From Candidatus Woesearchaeota archaeon (GTDB lineage: Archaea > Nanobdellota > Nanobdellia > SCGC-AAA011-G17 > PNOQ01): a stretch of 64,000 bases of DNA. Positions within the stretch are counted from its first letter, which is position 1. Each line of letters opens with the position of its first letter. Where the stretch lies: NCBI GenBank assembly GCA_018693795.1, contig JABHMJ010000022.1:146-64145 (forward strand), given 5' to 3'. The notes under the pieces are model-generated. The model searched no databases. It saw only the letters and a program-made list of their open reading frames with translations, and was not told the DNA's origin. Below are positions 1 through 49,167 of this stretch, one piece after another. A program made the position numbers and the translations under genes.

Positions 1-154
1 ATTTTCCTGAACCCGAGGGCCCCAAAATAGCAACAAAATCTCCCTCTCTTATTTGTAAAGAAACTCCATCTACGGCCCTAACAATGTTTTTTCCCATACG
101 ATAATGCTTGTAAACGTTTTTTAATTCTATGATTACTTTTTTTTCATTTTTCAT
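1..154 (-). CDS. ABC transporter ATP-binding protein, N-terminal fragment (gene continues upstream of window)
   Basis: The reverse-strand translation reads MKNEKKVIIELKNVYKHYRMGKNIVRAVDGVSLQIREGDFVAILGPSGSGK, a typical ABC ATPase N-terminus with a Walker A motif. The start ATG at 154..152 overlaps the stop of the upstream gene (ATGA). It is truncated by the window edge. Confidence 0.7.
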   Translation of the reverse strand, partial: MKNEKKVIIELKNVYKHYRMGKNIVRAVDGVSLQIREGDFVAILGPSGSGK

Positions 155-1215
155 TGTTTTATATTCCCCTTTGCGCTTAATTGTACTCCTTTATCTTTTT
201 TCTTTTGAGAAATGTAATCATAAAATTCTTTGTAAGTCATTACTTGAACATCATCATTTTTTACATAAGCTAAAAATTTATCTAAATCATCTAACTTTTC
301 TAGTGTATCAAACGTATTTGGATGTAATTGTAAAATAAATAAATTATCTTTTTCATATTCATCTATCCATTCTTCATATGGTGTATGTCTAAAATCAATA
401 GCATGCCACCCATAATGATAAATTGGATCGTATCCTTTTTGAGTGATTATTACATCAGAATCAAAATAGGCTTTAGGAACATGTGTGTTTCCAATAATTT
501 TGAATCCTGCTCTTTTTACGTTTTCATATTGTTCTGTAGTCCAATAATTTCCTGGCGGAAAATATGAATTGAATTGGATATTAAAAATATTTTCAAGTTC
601 TCTTTTTCCATTGTAAACATTAAACCAAACTTCTTCATATTTTGGGCAATGATATTGATTTCTACAGTGGTTATATCCGTGCATTCCCAATTCATATCCT
701 TCATCTGATAATTTTTTTAAATAATCAATCATTTGTTGATCTTCAATTAATGGTATGTTTTCTTTTGTGGATTCATCGAAAATATATGGTGTCACCCCCA
801 ATGTAGCTCTAAATCCATATTTGCTTATTGTATCAGTAACTGGAATAAATTGATCAAAAGTATAACCATATCTTTCATAATTTTCCACATCTTCAATATT
901 CCAATAATCATCTAGTTCTATAATCATTATTTTTTTATCTACTTTTACTGAGGTAGATTGATCCAAAGAATAAATTGCAAAACGTATTCCAGAATATAAT
1001 ATAATCAGAATTAATAGAATTACTAATATTATTTTAAATATTTCTTTATTTTTCTTTTTTGAGAAATTTAGTATCTTTTTCCAAAATTTAATATCTAATT
1101 TTTTTTTGACTATATACAATAGGATTATTGAAATTATGATTAATGCAAAAACATATCCAACTAAGATATAATACAAATCACTTAGTGTTAAACTTCCTGG
1201 AAGTAATCCTACCAT
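151..1215 (-). CDS. membrane-anchored polysaccharide deacetylase-like (NodB-fold) protein
   Basis: N-terminal TM helices are followed by NodB-like motifs (DDY, GMHGYNH, PPGNY, LQLHP). It is translationally coupled to the downstream ABC ATPase. Confidence 0.5.
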   Translation of the reverse strand: MVGLLPGSLTLSDLYYILVGYVFALIIISIILLYIVKKKLDIKFWKKILNFSKKKNKEIFKIILVILLILIILYSGIRFAIYSLDQSTSVKVDKKIMIIELDDYWNIEDVENYERYGYTFDQFIPVTDTISKYGFRATLGVTPYIFDESTKENIPLIEDQQMIDYLKKLSDEGYELGMHGYNHCRNQYHCPKYEEVWFNVYNGKRELENIFNIQFNSYFPPGNYWTTEQYENVKRAGFKIIGNTHVPKAYFDSDVIITQKGYDPIYHYGWHAIDFRHTPYEEWIDEYEKDNLFILQLHPNTFDTLEKLDDLDKFLAYVKNDDVQVMTYKEFYDYISQKKKDKGVQLSAKGNIKQ

Positions 1216-1266: not shown

Positions 1267-2973
1267 TTATTTCCTTTTCTTAAAGAAAAGAGAAAGGAAA
1301 TAAATTATTATAACGATTAAAGCTATATCGCCAACTATCCAGAATGTTGTTTTTGCTGTTTCGTTATCAAAAAAGTTTCCAACAGACCAACCAGTAGGTA
1401 AAAATACTGTTCCACTAGTTTCTTCGTTAGATTCTCCAGCTAAACTATCAGTTGAATCTGATTCTTCTGATTCTTCAGTTTCTTCTGATACTAAACAACC
1501 ATTAACTGTTATCTTTTCTACGTAATTTTTTTGTTCACCTAAATCATCGTAGTAAAGAGTAAATGTTAATGCATATTCTTTGTTAGCCATTCCTTCTGGG
1601 ATTGTAGCTTCTAGATATACAGTGTTATCATCATCTCGGTCATCATATTTTTCTAAATCGAATGTTTCAGAAAAAACATCAATTCCAAGTTCTGAATTAT
1701 ACATTCTTACTTTTACTGCATCATCATCTCGATCGCCAACATTTTGTACATCAACTTCTGCGTTGAAAAGATATCCACATGAAACTACAGATGGATTAAC
1801 CAAAATACTATCGATTATTACTTTATGATCTGGTCTTTCTACATCTATTTCTTCAACATCTTCAATACATTGGTGATCTTCGTTTCTGTATTCATAAGCT
1901 TTAACATGAACTTCGTATGTCCCATCATCCCAATCATCTTCAACTTCTATTTCAAATGAAAAAGTTTCTGTTTCATCTTCTTCAATATCAGTTTTTGAGC
2001 TTTTTTCACTCTCTAACTTTCTATCCTCTCCACGTTCTGTTACCCAAACTTCTACGATTACATCATCGATGTCTTCATTATCATTATTTTCAATTTCAAC
2101 ATCTATTTGTATCATGTCCCCTTGTGAGTATTCATCCTCATCTACATCGAATTCTTCAATTCTTAGTTGACCTACATCACAAAAATCAGATTCATCTAGT
2201 AAATCAAAATCTTTTATATTAACATCATGTTGATTTAACTCATCATCTGTTTTGTAAGTTTTTACATATAAATCATAATTATGATCTGCATCTAAATTAT
2301 CATTTACATCTAATGAAACTGAGAATGTTTCCTCTTGTCCATCATCAACTGTTTGATCACTTGAATCTTCAAAAGCAACTATTTGTTTTAAATCTTCATC
2401 ATATAACCAAACTTCTAGTCTTACATCAGTTAAATCTGCTGATCCATCATTTTCAATATCTAAATCGATATCCAGGATATTTCCTGCCCTCATTTGATCA
2501 GGAATATCATCATATGAATCAGTATCAATTATATTTAAGTTTCCAACACTTCCTGTGTATTGATCTACGAATACTGTGGCAGGCATTGTTGTTTGTGTTG
2601 CATTTTCAGTTACAGTTATTGTTGATTCATATTCACCCATTCTTGTAGAAAGGGGCACATTTACTGTTGCTATTACATCAGTTGAACCGTTTCCAGGCAC
2701 ATCTGCTGTACTTGGGTTAAATGTTACTGTTCCGTCAAATAAATACGTGCTTATGAATGCATTAGTATATGTAAAATCACTCGCAGAAAGCACCGCACCA
2801 GTTACATTTGTTGCATCTGGGTTTGTTAATGTTATTGTGGCGTCTTTTGATTCACCTTGATTTGCAATTCCAAAGTCAATTGGGCCTGTAGTCAAGTCAG
2901 CATTTGCTAGCGTAGCTGATAAAATCAAAAACATTGCCAAAAATATTAATTTTTTCATTCTTTTGTCCTCCAA
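1267..2973 (-). CDS. secreted acidic cell-surface protein with tripartite C-terminal sorting-like signal (motif, TM helix, KKRK)
   Basis: N-terminal signal peptide (MKKLIFLAMFLILSATLANA); many N-x-S/T sequons; Asp/Glu-rich repeated domains; Ser/Glu-rich linker; C-terminal PTGWSVGNFFDNETAKTTFW followed by a hydrophobic helix and KKRK. Confidence 0.6.
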   Translation of the reverse strand: MEDKRMKKLIFLAMFLILSATLANADLTTGPIDFGIANQGESKDATITLTNPDATNVTGAVLSASDFTYTNAFISTYLFDGTVTFNPSTADVPGNGSTDVIATVNVPLSTRMGEYESTITVTENATQTTMPATVFVDQYTGSVGNLNIIDTDSYDDIPDQMRAGNILDIDLDIENDGSADLTDVRLEVWLYDEDLKQIVAFEDSSDQTVDDGQEETFSVSLDVNDNLDADHNYDLYVKTYKTDDELNQHDVNIKDFDLLDESDFCDVGQLRIEEFDVDEDEYSQGDMIQIDVEIENNDNEDIDDVIVEVWVTERGEDRKLESEKSSKTDIEEDETETFSFEIEVEDDWDDGTYEVHVKAYEYRNEDHQCIEDVEEIDVERPDHKVIIDSILVNPSVVSCGYLFNAEVDVQNVGDRDDDAVKVRMYNSELGIDVFSETFDLEKYDDRDDDNTVYLEATIPEGMANKEYALTFTLYYDDLGEQKNYVEKITVNGCLVSEETEESEESDSTDSLAGESNEETSGTVFLPTGWSVGNFFDNETAKTTFWIVGDIALIVIIIYFLSLFFKKRK

Positions 2974-3009
2974 AATTATAATTTTGTTACACTTCTAGAG
3001 TTGTAAATC

Positions 3010-3026
3010 TGTTTATAAAGTTTACT
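3010..3026 (-). promoter_or_regulatory. BRE/TATA promoter element (AGTAAACTTTATAAACA on minus strand) upstream of surface protein gene
   Basis: TATA-like TTTATAAA about 37 nt upstream of the start at 2973. The identical 17-mer recurs upstream of the L1 operon at 7067..7083. Confidence 0.35.
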
Positions 3027-3060
3027 AAAGCTTATAAATTTATTAAAGTGTGAGAAATTA

Positions 3061-3576
3061 ATGAAATATTATTGGAATTTGGGTTTTAGATTACTTTTTG
3101 CGGTAGTTTTTGTTGTTTTTTATGAATTTTTTTATTCTGTCATTTATCCTTTAACTGTTTATCCAGCTTATTTTTTAATTAATTTATTTTATGATGCTTA
3201 TTTGGTTAATAATTCTATATTTATTTCTGGTATTGTTATTAATATTATTCCTGCTTGTATTGCTGGAATTGCTTATGCTTTGTTATTATTTTTAATAATT
3301 TTTACTAAAGGCATTAGTTTAAAGAAAAGTGTTAGGATGTTTTTATTTGGTAGTTTGTTAATTTTATTAATGAATATTTTACGTATAGATTTATTGATAT
3401 TTGTTTTGTTGGAATTTGGATCTGATTTATTTGATAAAATTCATTTAGTATTTTGGAATTTTATTTCTGGGTTGTATGTTGCTTTTGTTTGGATATTTTT
3501 GGTTAAGAAGTTTAAGGTTAAAAGTATTCCTGTTGTTTCTGATGTAAAAGAATTATATAAGAGAATAAATCCCTAA
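3061..3576 (+). CDS. archaeosortase/exosortase family protein (small variant)
   Basis: Polytopic membrane protein with an IPACIAGIAY motif (exosortase ACSG-like catalytic Cys) and an NILRI motif (conserved NxxRI Arg). It lies next to a surface protein carrying a C-terminal TM plus basic tail. Confidence 0.5.
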   Translation: MKYYWNLGFRLLFAVVFVVFYEFFYSVIYPLTVYPAYFLINLFYDAYLVNNSIFISGIVINIIPACIAGIAYALLLFLIIFTKGISLKKSVRMFLFGSLLILLMNILRIDLLIFVLLEFGSDLFDKIHLVFWNFISGLYVAFVWIFLVKKFKVKSIPVVSDVKELYKRINP

Positions 3577-4008
3577 AGAAGCTAATGTTACAAGTATTCC
3601 TGCAATGAATACTCCTGCTGCAATTGTTACTAATGATTTTTTTCTATCTAATTTGAATAACCAAGCAGCTAACGACCCAGTATATGCTCCAGTTCCAGGG
3701 AGTGGGATAGCTACCAAAAGTAATAATGCTGGATATTCCCATTTTGTTCCAATTCTGTGTTCAATTTTTCTTCTTGTTCGGTTTATTAGTTTTGAAAATA
3801 AAACCCTGTAAAATTTTTTCTCCATGAATCTTTCATGTAAAAAATCTAGAAATAAAAATATTATGGGAATAATTAAAATATTAGCTAAAACACATAAAGT
3901 AAATATTACTCCGATAGATGCCCCAGAAGACATTGCCAATGGAATTCCACCACGCAATTCTGCAATTGGTAAAGCACTTAATATTATTCCGTAAATTAAA
4001 TTACTCAT
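3553..4008 (-). CDS. small integral membrane protein (COG2426 / small multidrug export-like)
   Basis: N-terminus LPIAELRGGIPLA and about 4 TM helices. Confidence 0.4.
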   Translation of the reverse strand: MSNLIYGIILSALPIAELRGGIPLAMSSGASIGVIFTLCVLANILIIPIIFLFLDFLHERFMEKKFYRVLFSKLINRTRRKIEHRIGTKWEYPALLLLVAIPLPGTGAYTGSLAAWLFKLDRKKSLVTIAAGVFIAGILVTLASLGIYSLI

Positions 4009-4047: not shown

Positions 4048-4887
4048 TTATTTACCAGAACCTTGGAAAACTAAAAGATCTTCATTTGTTAATTTTTTCT
4101 TTTTCTTTAATTTTTCTTCTACTTCTTTTGTTTTTTCTTCAAGAATATGTGTATCTCTTTTTTTAACTTTGAAATCTTGTTCTATTCTCATACCTTTTGC
4201 ATTTTTTAATTTTTCTTTTAATTGAGAATTTATTTTTGAGAATTTATTTTTTGAATCTATAAAACTTTCAAATGCTTTTTCTTGTTTTTTCTTTAAATCA
4301 TTAATTTGTTTTGTTAATTTTCTAAATTCTTCATAATCGGGTTTACTATCTTTTATTTCTTTTTGTAATTTTTTATGACAATCTTCTGCTTTGTCTTTTG
4401 CTTCTTTAATTTTGTTTGAAACTTCTTTTAATTCTTTGAATAAACCTTGTACATCTCCAGCTTCTGTCATTTGTTTTTTAAGATGTCTAATTTGTATCAT
4501 AATCTTTTTTTCTTTATCGAAAGATAATGCTTCAGTTTGAATAGAATAATCTAATGCTTCAATTTGTTTTGATATTTCTCCTGGATTGAAAGTAATCTTT
4601 TTATCTTTCATAATTTTTTGTTTTTCAGAATTAAGTTTTTTAAATTTGGAAATTAGTTTTTTTACTTCATCATTATATTTATTCCTTTCTGTTTTTAATT
4701 TTTGAACTTCTTTATTATCAGTAGTTTTAGAAAATTTAATTTTTTTAATTTGAGAGATTAATTTAGAAACTTCTTTTTTTAATCCCTCTTTTTCAGTAAA
4801 CCACTCTTCTTTTTCTACGTTTAGTTTATTAAGAGTGTTTTTTAGTTCTGTAATTCCCTTTTTTAGTTCTTTTTCCGATGTCATCAT
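4048..4887 (-). CDS. coiled-coil Lys/Glu-rich protein, unknown function
   Basis: 279 aa with heptad-like K/E/L periodicity throughout and no catalytic motifs. Confidence 0.5.
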   Translation of the reverse strand: MMTSEKELKKGITELKNTLNKLNVEKEEWFTEKEGLKKEVSKLISQIKKIKFSKTTDNKEVQKLKTERNKYNDEVKKLISKFKKLNSEKQKIMKDKKITFNPGEISKQIEALDYSIQTEALSFDKEKKIMIQIRHLKKQMTEAGDVQGLFKELKEVSNKIKEAKDKAEDCHKKLQKEIKDSKPDYEEFRKLTKQINDLKKKQEKAFESFIDSKNKFSKINSQLKEKLKNAKGMRIEQDFKVKKRDTHILEEKTKEVEEKLKKKKKLTNEDLLVFQGSGK

Positions 4888-46885: not shown

Positions 46886-48319
46886 ATGAAACAAACAAAA
46901 TTTACAAAAATCATAACATTATTCGCAATTTTCTTAATCTTATTAAATACTGTTTCTGCGTTAAAAATTTCAACTAGTGAAATAAATGATGTAGACCAAG
47001 GGGATAATGTTTATTTCGACGTAGAAATTGGATTATCTAGGATAGACATAATTCAATTGGTAAATGATGATATTTTTATTAGACATGCAAAATTAACAAT
47101 AACTGGTCCAAACGGATTTTATGAAACTTGTTTTGTAAAAGATGGACAATTAGTTGACTGTGATTTAGATCTTTCTGTTAAAGAGGTTATTTCTCAAAAT
47201 AAAGATCAAATTACTTATCAATTTGTTTGGAACACTCTAAGTGGGATTGAAAAAGGAACATATAATGTTAATGGGGAATTATACTTAACAAAAACTCTTG
47301 ATGCTCAATATTCTTATTGCGATATATTAGTTGGCAGGTATCAAGCATTATCTAGTTTTGATCATGTTTTACTGTATGATTCAACTTTAGATTTAAATAA
47401 TGATAATATAGTTAATTTATCGGATTTGGTTATTTTCCAATCAAACCCTATGTACAGACAAGATGGGGAATTATTTGGAAGATTTCAAGGATTTTTTATG
47501 TTGAATAAAGAATATAGGGAGTATAATTCAATGCTGGATTTGAACGAAGATGGCATCATTAACTTATCCGATTTAGTATTATTATCTCAAGAATTGGGAA
47601 ATGATAAATTAGATTTAAATGGAGATGGGATAGAAAATTTATCAGATATTGTTATACTTGCACAATATTTTGAAACAGAAAATTTAGAGTTAGATTGGAA
47701 TAATGATGGAATTGTTAATCTTTCAGATATCATATTAATAACACAATATATGGAAAATGGCAATTTAGAACTTGATATGAATGGAGATGACATTTTCAAC
47801 TTAAGTGACATCGTTATAATTTCAGAAATATATTCTAATTCAAAAATTTCAACTGAGTATGAAAGATCTTTAGACTTGGATGGAAATGGAATTGTTAATC
47901 TTTCAGATATTATTATACTTGCACAAAACATTGAAGGCTCATTTGAATTAGAAGATCTAAATGAAGATGGAATACTTGATTTAACAGAAACCATCATTGC
48001 TGCCAATGGAATAAATAATGAGGAATGGTGTGCAATGCAATTAGAAAAGATAGATGGTCTTGTTACAATATTTAATTCAGAAGAACAATCATTTGAGATA
48101 ACTTCAAGATCTTCAAATGGAGGATCTAGAAATCATGATGATGACAACTCTGCTGGAGATGACTACCAAGATTATGAATCTGGAGATGAATATGAAGGAA
48201 CATATACTCCATTTACAGAAACAAACTATTTGATGGATAATTTGTGGTCTTTAGTATTTTATCTGATTGCCATTATTGTTTCATTTAGTGGAATAGTGAT
48301 AGTTTCAAAAAAACTTTAA
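46886..48319 (+). CDS. secreted cell-surface protein with about eight dockerin-like Ca-binding repeats and C-terminal TM anchor
   Basis: Signal peptide, then repeated DLNxDGxxNLSDxVxLxQ motifs (dockerin type I-like), an acidic/Ser-rich linker, a TM helix and an SKKL tail. Confidence 0.6.
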   Translation: MKQTKFTKIITLFAIFLILLNTVSALKISTSEINDVDQGDNVYFDVEIGLSRIDIIQLVNDDIFIRHAKLTITGPNGFYETCFVKDGQLVDCDLDLSVKEVISQNKDQITYQFVWNTLSGIEKGTYNVNGELYLTKTLDAQYSYCDILVGRYQALSSFDHVLLYDSTLDLNNDNIVNLSDLVIFQSNPMYRQDGELFGRFQGFFMLNKEYREYNSMLDLNEDGIINLSDLVLLSQELGNDKLDLNGDGIENLSDIVILAQYFETENLELDWNNDGIVNLSDIILITQYMENGNLELDMNGDDIFNLSDIVIISEIYSNSKISTEYERSLDLDGNGIVNLSDIIILAQNIEGSFELEDLNEDGILDLTETIIAANGINNEEWCAMQLEKIDGLVTIFNSEEQSFEITSRSSNGGSRNHDDDNSAGDDYQDYESGDEYEGTYTPFTETNYLMDNLWSLVFYLIAIIVSFSGIVIVSKKL

Positions 48320-48325
48320 TTTTTT

Positions 48326-48640
48326 TTATTTTTCACAAATTACTTGCATTGGAAACGATTCAGTAAAATCGCAAATTAAAGATTCGCATTTTAAGCAAGG
48401 ATCGCCCTGATAACAAATTGGTTCATCTTCAAAGTTATAACAATTAAAACTTTCTGGACAATTATTCATATAATCACATTTTATTGTTTCTGGACATTCT
48501 TCAAAATTACAATTATTATTTGAATCTCTTGAAACAAATGTTCCATCTTGACACATCTTTGCTTCTTCGGTACAAGCTAAAGGTTCACCCATACAAGAAG
48601 AAATCAATACTGTTGCTAAAATTAATAATAATATTTTCAT
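48326..48640 (-). CDS. Cys-rich secreted lipoprotein-like protein (104 aa, about 17 Cys)
   Basis: Lipobox-like LISSC followed by CxxC/CNFEEC-type Cys spacing. Confidence 0.45.
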   Translation of the reverse strand: MKILLLILATVLISSCMGEPLACTEEAKMCQDGTFVSRDSNNNCNFEECPETIKCDYMNNCPESFNCYNFEDEPICYQGDPCLKCESLICDFTESFPMQVICEK

Positions 48641-49167
48641 TTTTCTATTTTTTTATAGCCAATCCACATTATTATGATTAGCTCAACTAATATTACTAAG
48701 GCTCTCCATATCTTGCTTAAATCTGAGAATGCACGTATTGTTCCATAAAATAAAACAATTAAACCTGCAAACATTAAACCTGCACCCATATAATCTGTTT
48801 TAAAATACAACCCTAGAATTACTAATATTAGGCCAATTGGGGCTATGATAAAAAATAAGTTTCTATTGTATTTTTCTTTTGCATCTTGATATTCGTTATT
48901 ACAAAAATCACATTCTTTGAATTCATTACATCCTTGATCATTTGTTTCTAGAATTGGATTTCCATTTTCTTCTAAACAACTTTGATAATCTGGACCATAG
49001 TCAAAATTACATTCTTCAATTGGTTTTACATTTGTTGGGAAAAAACGTTGTCCACTACAAAAATCATCGTAATCTGGAGAAGAATAAATTGCATCAACAA
49101 ATAACCCTACAAATAGTGGGAGAAGTATTGCTATCCCCAAAATCATGGCTAATTTTTTTGGATCCAT
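48637..49167 (-). CDS. Cys-rich membrane protein (paralogous Cys domain plus 2 C-terminal TM)
   Basis: N-terminal TM; extracellular Cys-rich domain sharing an ECNF motif with the adjacent gene; 4-nt overlap coupling. Confidence 0.45.
   Translation of the reverse strand: MDPKKLAMILGIAILLPLFVGLFVDAIYSSPDYDDFCSGQRFFPTNVKPIEECNFDYGPDYQSCLEENGNPILETNDQGCNEFKECDFCNNEYQDAKEKYNRNLFFIIAPIGLILVILGLYFKTDYMGAGLMFAGLIVLFYGTIRAFSDLSKIWRALVILVELIIIMWIGYKKIEK

What the first reader, a model, noticed from the sequence alone, without database searches (positions are those of the whole stretch)
1267..3576. Small archaeosortase-like protein adjacent to a surface protein whose C-terminal sorting signal is not a named motif type
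The 171-aa polytopic protein at 3061-3576 carries ACIAG and NILRI, the two signature motifs (catalytic Cys and NxxRI Arg) of the exosortase/archaeosortase family. It is only about half the size of ArtA. The divergently transcribed neighbour (1267-2973) is a secreted, acidic, sequon-rich surface protein. It ends with an acidic Ser/Glu linker, the motif PTGWSVGNFFDNETAKTTFW, a TM helix and KKRK. That is the tripartite architecture of sortase substrates, but the motif does not match PGF-, PEF-, PIP-, VPXXXP- or PEP-CTERM. This could be an undescribed archaeosortase/substrate class in a DPANN-type genome.
Basis: partly seen in the sequence, partly recalled or inferred. Interest (0 to 1): 0.72.

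Follow-up and report, generated by a model that had tools for sequence, protein, structure and literature searches.

The report
Pacearchaeosortase with its S-layer substrate
This is a small membrane-bound cysteine peptidase (an archaeosortase) sitting next to the single cell-surface protein it probably processes; NCBI's curated models already name both genes, so only a variant sorting tail on the surface protein is new.

Summary
The core observation holds. The 171-aa protein (3061-3576, +) is an archaeosortase. The divergent neighbour (true start ATG 2958, 563 aa) is a secreted, acidic surface protein with a signal box, a TM helix and a KKRK tail.

The class is not undescribed. The 171-aa protein matches NCBIfam NF033505 "pacearchaeosortase" over its full length (136 bits, cut-off 80). 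The neighbour matches NF033506 "PACE-CTERM-PROT, putative S-layer protein" (153 bits, cut-off 110). The exact sequences are in GenBank under those names (MBT6995250.1, MBT6995249.1; Ca. Woesearchaeota). No paper in the searched library uses either name.

In 77 related loci, 53 of 61 sortase genes with enough upstream DNA have exactly one such substrate, always upstream.

One modest new point emerged. The window's C-terminal signal ([FY]-x-P-T-G, then FWIxGD at the helix start 17-18 residues later, then YF and basic residues) is not matched by the C-terminal part of NF033506. Pacearchaeota-type tails are matched. A profile of this signal, searched against 1.84 billion proteins, found it only on this protein family. 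It tracks a separate sortase sub-clade with divergent gene order.

Two details fail: the protein is not sequon-rich (4 sequons, 4.9 expected), and 46886-48319 does not share the signal. Cleavage and lipid anchoring are inferred from ArtA.

The parts
3061..3576 (+). Pacearchaeosortase gene: 171 aa, a polytopic membrane cysteine peptidase/transpeptidase of the exosortase/archaeosortase family.
   Evidence: NF033505 at 136 bits (cut-off 80), profile positions 9-166 of 167. TIGR04178 at 35.8 bits (cut-off 23). The exact sequence is MBT6995250.1, 'pacearchaeosortase'. AF2 model pLDDT 82.
3253..3267 (+). ACIAG motif (residues 65-69) with the presumed catalytic Cys66 at the start of a TM helix.
   Evidence: C66, A68 invariant and A65 nearly invariant in alignment A1. 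The motif lies inside the TIGR04178 signature match, residues 61-147.
3373..3387 (+). NILRI motif (residues 105-109) with invariant N105 and R108.
   Evidence: Invariant in A1. The Cys-to-Arg spacing is 42 residues, against 41 in ArtA (Cys173/Arg214; PMC9263693).
3442..3444 (+). Invariant His128, a candidate third active-site residue.
   Evidence: Invariant in A1. A catalytic role is inferred, not tested.
3526..3543 (+). Conserved C-terminal IPxxSD motif (residues 156-161), following the basic stretch after the last TM helix.
   Evidence: I156, P157, D161 invariant and S160 nearly invariant in A1. This peptide was the pattern that retrieved 77 related loci. Function unknown.
2959..3060 (.). 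102-bp divergent intergenic region. It holds A/T-rich TATA-like boxes (tttataaa 3012-3019; cttataaa 3031-3038) and a GGAGG (minus strand, 2967-2971) ahead of the substrate gene's ATG.
   Evidence: Read directly from the sequence. The closest relative, L001, has the same 102-bp spacing. Promoter function is not tested.
1267..2958 (-). Substrate gene: a 563-aa secreted acidic surface protein ('putative S-layer protein', PACE-CTERM-PROT family).
   Evidence: NF033506 at 153 bits (cut-off 110). The exact sequence is MBT6995249.1. The AF2 model shows four beta-sandwich domains.
2899..2958 (-). Sec-type signal peptide (residues 1-20, MKKLIFLAMFLILSATLANA).
   Evidence: Read from the sequence. The AF2 model has helix 3-16 followed by a low-confidence stretch.
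1504..2895 (-). Four tandem Ig-like beta-sandwich domains (residues about 22-485).
   Evidence: AF2 pLDDT is mostly above 85. Foldseek hits are tandem Ig-like and macroglobulin-domain arrays. There are weak, sub-threshold Pfam matches to Ig-like domain families (NPCBM_assoc, HYDIN/VesB-like Ig, Fn3-like); close homologues carry precomputed CARDB (PF07705) hits.
1411..1503 (-). Acidic Ser/Glu/Thr-rich linker (residues 486-516), predicted disordered.
   Evidence: pLDDT is below 50 for residues 490-530. Composition read from the sequence.
1387..1410 (-). Upstream box of the sorting signal: TVFLPTGW (residues 517-524). Consensus [TV]-x-[FY]-x-P-T-[GS].
   Evidence: P521 is invariant and T522 nearly invariant in 27 homologues. 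A P-[TS] box is present in 50 of 68 FWIxGD-type tails, against about 15% expected. It sits 17-18 residues before the FW in 33 of those 50.
1282..1344 (-). TM helix of the sorting signal (residues 539-559). It begins with FWIVGD and contains the conserved YF.
   Evidence: F539, W540, L547, Y553 and F554 are invariant or nearly invariant. AF2 helix spans 533-562.
1270..1281 (-). Basic cytoplasmic tail KKRK (residues 560-563).
   Evidence: Read from the sequence. All 53 family members analysed have 2-5 K/R directly after the helix.

Best explanation
A dedicated archaeosortase and its substrate, of the already curated pacearchaeosortase / PACE-CTERM type.

Proposed mechanism:
1. The 563-aa surface protein is exported through Sec and loses its N-terminal signal peptide.
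2. It is held transiently in the membrane by its C-terminal helix and KKRK tail.
3. The 171-aa polytopic enzyme encoded 102 bp away recognises the bipartite signal ([FY]xPTG box, spacer, FWIxGD helix start).
4. Using Cys66 with Arg108 (and possibly His128), placed near the outer face of the membrane, it cleaves off the helix.
5. By analogy with Haloferax ArtA, it transfers the new C-terminus to a membrane lipid. The cell-surface (probably S-layer) protein ends up lipid-anchored.

Shown here: family membership of both proteins, intact active-site residues, conserved one-to-one gene pairing, restriction of the signal to this one protein family, and co-divergence of sortase clade and signal type.

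Inferred: cleavage, its position, the acceptor molecule, and the S-layer role.
For: - Both proteins exceed the curated NCBIfam cut-offs: NF033505 136/80, NF033506 153/110, TIGR04178 35.8/23.
- The exact proteins carry these names in GenBank, with consecutive accessions.
- C66, N105, R108 and H128 are invariant across 19 homologues down to 39% identity.
- Of 75 sortase loci from different species, 53 have exactly one substrate-family ORF, always upstream. Only 8 of the 61 loci with at least 2.5 kb of upstream DNA lack one.
- A profile of the 55-aa C-terminal signal, searched against 1.84 billion representative proteins, gave 57 hits. Of these, 48 have the same beta-sandwich body. Seven of the others are short (39-188 aa, mostly evident C-terminal fragments) and two are spurious internal matches.
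- Average-linkage clustering of sortase pairwise distances gives two groups that coincide exactly with gene orientation. The nearest-neighbour sortase has the same signal class in 48 of 53 cases.
- The window contains one sortase and one matching substrate.
- ArtA precedent: the C-terminal PGF/TM/basic signal is cleaved and lipid is attached, and Cys173, Arg214 and Arg253 are essential (PMC6098224; PMC9263693).
Against: - There is no experimental evidence for any member of this family, and no paper in the searched library mentions it.
- No solved structure of any exosortase or archaeosortase exists to check active-site geometry.
- The equivalent of ArtA's third essential residue, Arg253, was not identified.
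- Eight related genomes have the sortase without an adjacent substrate.
- Whether this DPANN genome has the lipid-synthesis partners that ArtA substrates need (PssA/PssD) was not examined.
- The window's C-terminal tail is not matched by the C-terminal part of NF033506, so recognition of this particular tail rests on gene linkage alone.
Confidence: 0.8

Rival explanations
1. The C-terminal helix is a permanent membrane anchor, as in Sulfolobus SlaB, and is never cleaved. The small sortase-like protein acts on another target or has a non-proteolytic role such as a chaperone or assembly factor.
For: Many archaeal surface proteins keep a C-terminal TM anchor (PMC6098224). Eight related loci have the sortase with no adjacent substrate. 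No processing data exist.
Against: The tail is conserved well beyond simple hydrophobicity: PT box at fixed spacing, FW, GD, YF. It is exclusive to this family. Its type co-varies with sortase clade. Cys, Arg and His are invariant, which argues for a working enzyme. The pairing holds in 53 of 61 loci.
Confidence: 0.1
2. The enzyme does cleave the tail but acts as a transpeptidase onto an acceptor other than a membrane lipid. The acceptor could be another protein subunit, a glycan, or a host-cell surface component in this presumed episymbiont. Alternatively it simply releases the protein.
For: Only ArtA has a known acceptor. DPANN archaea often lack full lipid biosynthesis (general knowledge, not tested here). 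Just downstream of the substrate gene lies a DUF2334/polysaccharide-deacetylase-like membrane protein.
Against: There is no positive evidence for a different acceptor. The closest characterised homologue attaches lipid.
Confidence: 0.15
3. The LPTG in the tail is a bacterial-type LPXTG signal handled by a classical sortase A-like enzyme, and the adjacency to the 171-aa protein is incidental.
For: The window protein literally contains L-P-T-G about 15 residues before a TM helix and a basic tail.
Against: Only P-T (usually followed by G) is conserved. The Leu position varies (L/M/I/Y/F/Q/T) across the family. LPXTG normally lies directly before the helix. The neighbour is an exosortase-family protein, not a sortase-fold protein: it has no Pfam hit at all. 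The linkage is conserved across dozens of species.
Confidence: 0.02

Closest known systems
Pacearchaeosortase (NCBIfam NF033505) with PACE-CTERM-PROT putative S-layer protein (NF033506)
   Same: Both window proteins exceed the curated cut-offs and carry these names in GenBank. The size (about 170 aa), the one-sortase-one-substrate adjacency and the DPANN (Woese-/Pace-/Nanoarchaeota) distribution all agree.
   Different: The window belongs to a sub-clade that scores lower against NF033505 (136 and 116 bits for the window and L066, against 151-221 for the three Pace-type sortases tested). In this sub-clade the genes are divergent rather than co-directional. Its C-terminal signal ([FY]xPTG ... 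FWIxGD ... YF) is not matched by the C-terminal part of NF033506 (profile positions 551-627), which does match Pacearchaeota-type tails (NWYLWGIGxLN...) at 31-88 bits.
Haloferax volcanii archaeosortase A (ArtA) with PGF-CTERM substrates, including the S-layer glycoprotein
   Same: Same superfamily signature (TIGR04178). The Cys and Arg motifs have nearly the same spacing (42 vs 41 residues). The substrate has a tripartite C-terminal signal (motif, TM helix, basic tail). A major surface or S-layer protein is the target.
   Different: The enzyme here is 171 aa. No ArtA model appears among its hits at E<=10. ArtA serves from 1 to 52 substrates per genome (PMC6098224), whereas this enzyme appears to have one. 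In ArtA substrates the PGF motif directly abuts the helix. Here there is no PGF, but a P-T-G box 17-18 residues before an FWIxGD helix start. The equivalent of ArtA Arg253 was not identified.
Small archaeosortases ArtD (TIGR04175) and ArtE (TIGR04124)
   Same: Comparable size (profiles of 150-153 positions). Weak full-length similarity (28.6 and 32.7 bits).
   Different: The scores are far below the family cut-offs (125 and 95), so the protein is not a member. These subfamilies are reported to have their own distinct substrate motifs (PMC6098224).
Bacterial sortase A with LPXTG substrates
   Same: Analogous logic: C-terminal motif, TM helix and basic tail, with a Cys/Arg-dependent transpeptidase. 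The window tail happens to contain LPTG.
   Different: The enzyme fold is unrelated (PMC6098224). The Leu is not conserved in the family, and the box lies 17-18 residues from the helix start.

Membership tests
Exosortase/archaeosortase superfamily (TIGR04178 signature) | Matches the signature HMM above its curated cut-off | tested here: met
   35.8 bits against a cut-off of 23; residues 61-147.
Exosortase/archaeosortase superfamily (TIGR04178 signature) | Conserved Cys and Arg active-site motifs in a polytopic membrane protein | tested here: met
   C66 and R108 are invariant in 19 homologues, as are N105 and H128. Hydropathy and the AF2 model show multiple TM helices.
Exosortase/archaeosortase superfamily (TIGR04178 signature) | Cleaves the C-terminal sorting signal of its substrates | not testable with these tools
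   This needs proteomics or heterologous co-expression. Only ArtA has such data.
Pacearchaeosortase (NF033505) | Full-length HMM match above the curated cut-off | tested here: met
   136 bits against a cut-off of 80; profile positions 9-166 of 167. GenBank names the exact sequence pacearchaeosortase.
Pacearchaeosortase (NF033505) | Encoded next to a single PACE-CTERM-PROT surface protein in a Pace-/Woese-/Nanoarchaeota genome. This criterion is my reading of the paired model names; the curators' text was not available. | tested here: met
   The window pair is separated by 102 bp. 53 of 61 informative related loci have one substrate ORF upstream. The locus titles name these taxa.
PACE-CTERM-PROT putative S-layer protein (NF033506) | Whole-protein HMM score above the curated cut-off | tested here: met
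   153.1 bits against a cut-off of 110. The best-scoring stretch is residues 277-479 of the TTG-extended 568-aa ORF, that is, the domain body.
PACE-CTERM-PROT putative S-layer protein (NF033506) | C-terminal sorting region matches the C-terminal part of the model (profile positions about 551-627) | tested here: not met
   The last 77 aa and the last 130 aa of the window protein give no match to profile positions 551-627. Pace-type tails from L039, L070 and L031 match at 88, 55 and 31 bits. Membership therefore rests on the body domains, and the tail is a variant.
PACE-CTERM-PROT putative S-layer protein (NF033506) | Forms the S-layer | not testable with these tools
   The name is 'putative'. 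The data show only a secreted, acidic protein with four Ig-like domains.
ArtA / PGF-CTERM | ArtA HMM match and a PGF motif abutting the TM helix | tested here: not met
   No ArtA or PGF-CTERM model appears among the hits at E<=10. The tail contains no PGF.
ArtD (TIGR04175) / ArtE (TIGR04124) | HMM score above the curated cut-off | tested here: not met
   28.6 bits against 125, and 32.7 bits against 95.
Classical sortase / LPXTG | Sortase-fold enzyme and a conserved LPXTG directly before the helix | tested here: not met
   The 171-aa protein has no Pfam hit. The Leu is variable and the box lies 17-18 residues upstream of the helix start. The rest of the genome was not searched for sortases.

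The most novel reading that the evidence does not exclude
The Woesearchaeota-type branch of the pacearchaeosortases, to which this window belongs, recognises a sorting signal of its own. The signal is bipartite: [TV]-x-[FY]-x-P-T-[GS], held at a fixed 17-18 residues before an F-W-I-x-G-D helix start, followed by a conserved Y-F and a basic tail. The curated PACE-CTERM model does not represent this tail, and no paper in the searched library uses the family's names. The fixed spacing suggests that the P-T-G box, rather than the helix edge, is the cleavage or transfer site. That would differ from PGF-, PEP- and PEF-type signals, where the motif abuts the helix, and would resemble LPXTG by convergence.
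Probability: 0.35. Interest if true: 0.45.

Novelty: already known. Interest (0 to 1): 0.25.

Why it matters
The system still has value as an uncharacterised case. Apparently one enzyme serves one substrate, and it anchors what is probably the main surface protein of ultrasmall DPANN archaea, whose cell surface mediates contact with hosts. The variant tail, with its fixed-distance P-T-G box, gives a clean and testable handle on how small archaeosortases read their signals. It also suggests that the C-terminal part of the curated substrate model could be widened to cover the Woesearchaeota-type branch.

Tried and rejected
- Pfam scan of the 171-aa protein gave no hit. NCBIfam was needed to identify it.
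- The AFDB library was not available.
- Literature searches for pacearchaeosortase, PACE-CTERM and paceosortase found 0 papers. Searching archaeosortase with DPANN found only general reviews. Haft 2012 and Abdul Halim 2018 are not held in the library.
- A word-indexed search with the C-terminal profile returned only 2 fragments. The exhaustive search was the informative one.
- 46886-48319 was tested as a second substrate and rejected. It is a dockerin-like repeat protein with an ordinary TM anchor.
- A family-wide PGF-like G[FWL] box upstream of the helix was tested. It is enriched 5.7-fold over the protein body but present in only 30 of 53 proteins. That is too loose to claim as a shared motif.
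- The LPXTG/sortase A reading was rejected.
- "Sequon-rich" was rejected.
- A metaproteomic DPANN paper was checked for S-layer evidence and contains none.
- tRNA and Rfam scans of the window found 5 tRNAs, none near the locus.
Full report
**What is in the sequence**

The window (about 28-33% G+C) has a 171-aa ORF at 3061-3576 (+) and a large ORF on the minus strand ending at 1267.

The ORF listing starts the large ORF at TTG 2973. The ATG at 2958 is the better start. A GGAGG lies 9-13 nt upstream of it, and both NCBI and JGI call the gene as 563 aa.

The 563-aa protein has these features:
- A classical signal peptide, MKKLIFLAMFLILSATLANA|D.
- Strong acidity: pI 4.05, 24.7% Asp+Glu.
- The C-terminus ...SGTVFLPTGWSVGNFFDNETAKTTFWIVGDIALIVIIIYFLSLFFKKRK.
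- It is not sequon-rich: 4 N-x-S/T against 4.9 expected from composition.

**Identity of the two proteins**

Against NCBIfam, the 171-aa protein matches NF033505 "pacearchaeosortase" over its full length (E=1.3e-39, 136 bits, cut-off 80). It also matches the exosortase/archaeosortase signature TIGR04178 (35.8 bits, cut-off 23). ArtE and ArtD score far below their cut-offs.

The neighbour matches NF033506 "PACE-CTERM-PROT, putative S-layer protein" (153 bits, cut-off 110). Pfam has nothing for the enzyme.

An exact-sequence look-up shows both proteins are already in GenBank under those names, from a Candidatus Woesearchaeota MAG, with consecutive accessions MBT6995250.1 and MBT6995249.1. The assembly is GCA_018670755.1.

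So the "archaeosortase plus substrate" interpretation is right, and the "undescribed class" part is not. A full-text search found no paper using the family's names, so the description exists only as curated annotation models. Experimental knowledge is limited to Haloferax ArtA.

**Is the enzyme intact?**

In an alignment of 19 homologues (39-78% identical to the window protein), C66, N105, R108, H128, W132, W144 and a C-terminal I156-P157-x-x-S-D161 motif are invariant or nearly so.

The Cys-to-Arg spacing is 42 residues, against 41 between the essential Cys173 and Arg214 of ArtA (PMC9263693). I could not identify the equivalent of ArtA Arg253.

The AF2 model is reasonably confident (pLDDT 82, pTM 0.74). 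It is helical with one short beta-hairpin region at residues 46-61.

The charged loops (TKGISLKKSVR after the Cys helix, KKFKVK after the last helix) suggest a topology by the positive-inside rule. That topology puts C66, R108 and H128 toward the outer face of the membrane. This is inference.

No solved structure resembles the model.

**Is the pairing real?**

A scan of one genome per species returned 77 related loci, in MAGs labelled Woesearchaeota, Pacearchaeota, Nanoarchaeota or Nanoarchaeia.

- A sortase ORF was found in 75 loci.
- 53 of these have exactly one ORF of the substrate family, always upstream of the sortase.
- Only 8 of the 61 loci with at least 2.5 kb of upstream DNA lack one.
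- In 18 loci, including the window's relatives, the genes are divergent. Gaps are 51-151 bp in eight of them and up to 3.8 kb in the others.
- In 35 loci the genes are co-directional, with gaps of about 31-35 bp in nine of them.

In the window itself there is one sortase and one protein matching the signal.

**The sorting signal**

Close homologues share the consensus [TV]-V-[FY]-L-P-T-G-[WF] ... (A)KT-x-F-W-I-[VL]-G-D-I-A-L ... I-Y-F ... [KR]3-4.

A 55-position profile of this tail was searched exhaustively against 1.84 billion representative proteins and gave only 57 hits.

- 48 carry the same beta-sandwich body.
- Seven are short (39-188 aa), mostly evident C-terminal fragments.
- Two are spurious internal matches.

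The signal is therefore exclusive to this one protein family, which fits a dedicated system.

Across 68 tails with an FWIxGD-like helix start, 50 have a P-[TS] box upstream, against about 15% expected. In 33 of the 50 it lies exactly 17-18 residues before the Phe of FW.

The substrate AF2 model shows four Ig-like beta-sandwich domains (residues 22-485), a disordered acidic linker that contains the box (pLDDT below 50 for 490-530), and a terminal helix at 533-562. Fold matches are generic tandem Ig-like or macroglobulin arrays.

**How the window differs from the curated family**

The C-terminal part of NF033506 (profile positions 551-627) matches Pacearchaeota-type tails (...NWYLWGIGxLNVILVIIIIVVAVRVxRK) at 31-88 bits. 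It does not match the window's last 77 or 130 residues, nor the one related FWIIGD-type tail tested (L066). The window protein passes the model on its body domains only.

Average-linkage clustering of sortase pairwise distances gives two groups that coincide perfectly with gene orientation.
- One group has 18 members, all divergent. It contains all 11 FWIxGD tails, including the window.
- The other has 35 members, all co-directional. It contains all 20 W..LN tails.
- The nearest-neighbour sortase has the same tail class in 48 of 53 cases.
- The window and L066 sortases score 136 and 116 bits against NF033505, against 151-221 for the three Pace-type sortases tested.

Enzyme and signal have diverged together. 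This would also follow from shared ancestry of the two lineages, so it is consistent with specific recognition but does not prove it.

**Mechanism and rivals**

The best-supported reading has five steps:
1. Sec export of the surface protein.
2. Transient anchoring by the C-terminal helix and KKRK tail.
3. Recognition of the bipartite signal by the adjacent enzyme.
4. Cys66/Arg108-dependent cleavage.
5. Transfer of the new C-terminus to a lipid, as for ArtA substrates.

Family membership, intact motifs, linkage, exclusivity and co-divergence are shown here. Cleavage, its site, the acceptor and the S-layer role are inferred.

Rivals:
- A permanent TM anchor with the enzyme acting elsewhere. This is disfavoured by motif conservation and linkage.
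- A non-lipid acceptor or simple release. This remains open.
- A true LPXTG/sortase A signal. This is rejected: the Leu is not conserved, the box is far from the helix, and the enzyme fold is unrelated.

**Verdict**

The finding is real and correctly read as an archaeosortase-substrate pair, but it is already covered by curated annotation. It is ordinary from a discovery standpoint.

The residual novelty is modest. The Woesearchaeota-type tail, with its fixed-distance P-T-G box, is not represented by the model's C-terminal region, no paper in the searched library uses the family's names, and nothing in this family has been tested experimentally.

Noticed in passing
window 46886-48319 (+): A 477-aa secreted protein with about eight dockerin/EF-hand-like repeats (DLNxDGxxNLSDxxxx), an acidic linker and a plain C-terminal TM anchor ending SKKL. 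It scores only weakly against the GC-type dockerin model (E=0.037) and does not carry the PACE-type signal.
   Followed up: partly
window 48326-48640 (-): A 104-aa Cys-rich small protein with a lipobox-like N-terminus (MKILLLILATVLISSC...). It sits next to a 176-aa Cys-rich membrane protein at 48637-49167.
   Followed up: no
window 3553-4008 (-): A small membrane protein of family PF06695 (Sm_multidrug_ex, E=2.4e-33), convergent with the sortase gene and overlapping its 3' end by 24 nt. Downstream context is partly conserved in related loci: the DUF7121 coiled-coil protein (4048-4887) recurs in several (e.g. L009, L017, L019, L021, L034), and L034 also keeps PF06695 and the L10/L1 ribosomal genes.
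   Followed up: partly
window 151-1215 (-): A DUF2334/polysaccharide-deacetylase-like protein with N-terminal TM segments lies directly downstream of the S-layer gene. On the parent contig it is followed by a MacB/FtsX-type ABC transporter. This could be a cell-surface modification or export cluster.
   Followed up: no
L009, L017, L019, L021, L029, L030, L034, L042: Eight related genomes have the pacearchaeosortase gene with no substrate-family ORF within about 6 kb. L019 and L021 instead have an 863-aa protein downstream with ...RLPTIFPGEENVKTFIFIG...KNRKK, which may be an alternative substrate.
   Followed up: partly
L047 and L068: Contigs carrying pacearchaeosortase loci are filed in bins labelled as bacteria (uncultured Vicingus sp.; Candidatus Dojkabacteria). 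They are probably mis-binned DPANN contigs.
   Followed up: no
window residues 156-161 of the sortase (3526-3543): A conserved C-terminal IP[IV][VY]SD motif follows the last TM helix in all 19 aligned pacearchaeosortases and matched most of the 77 retrieved loci. It is presumably cytoplasmic. Its function is unknown.
   Followed up: partly
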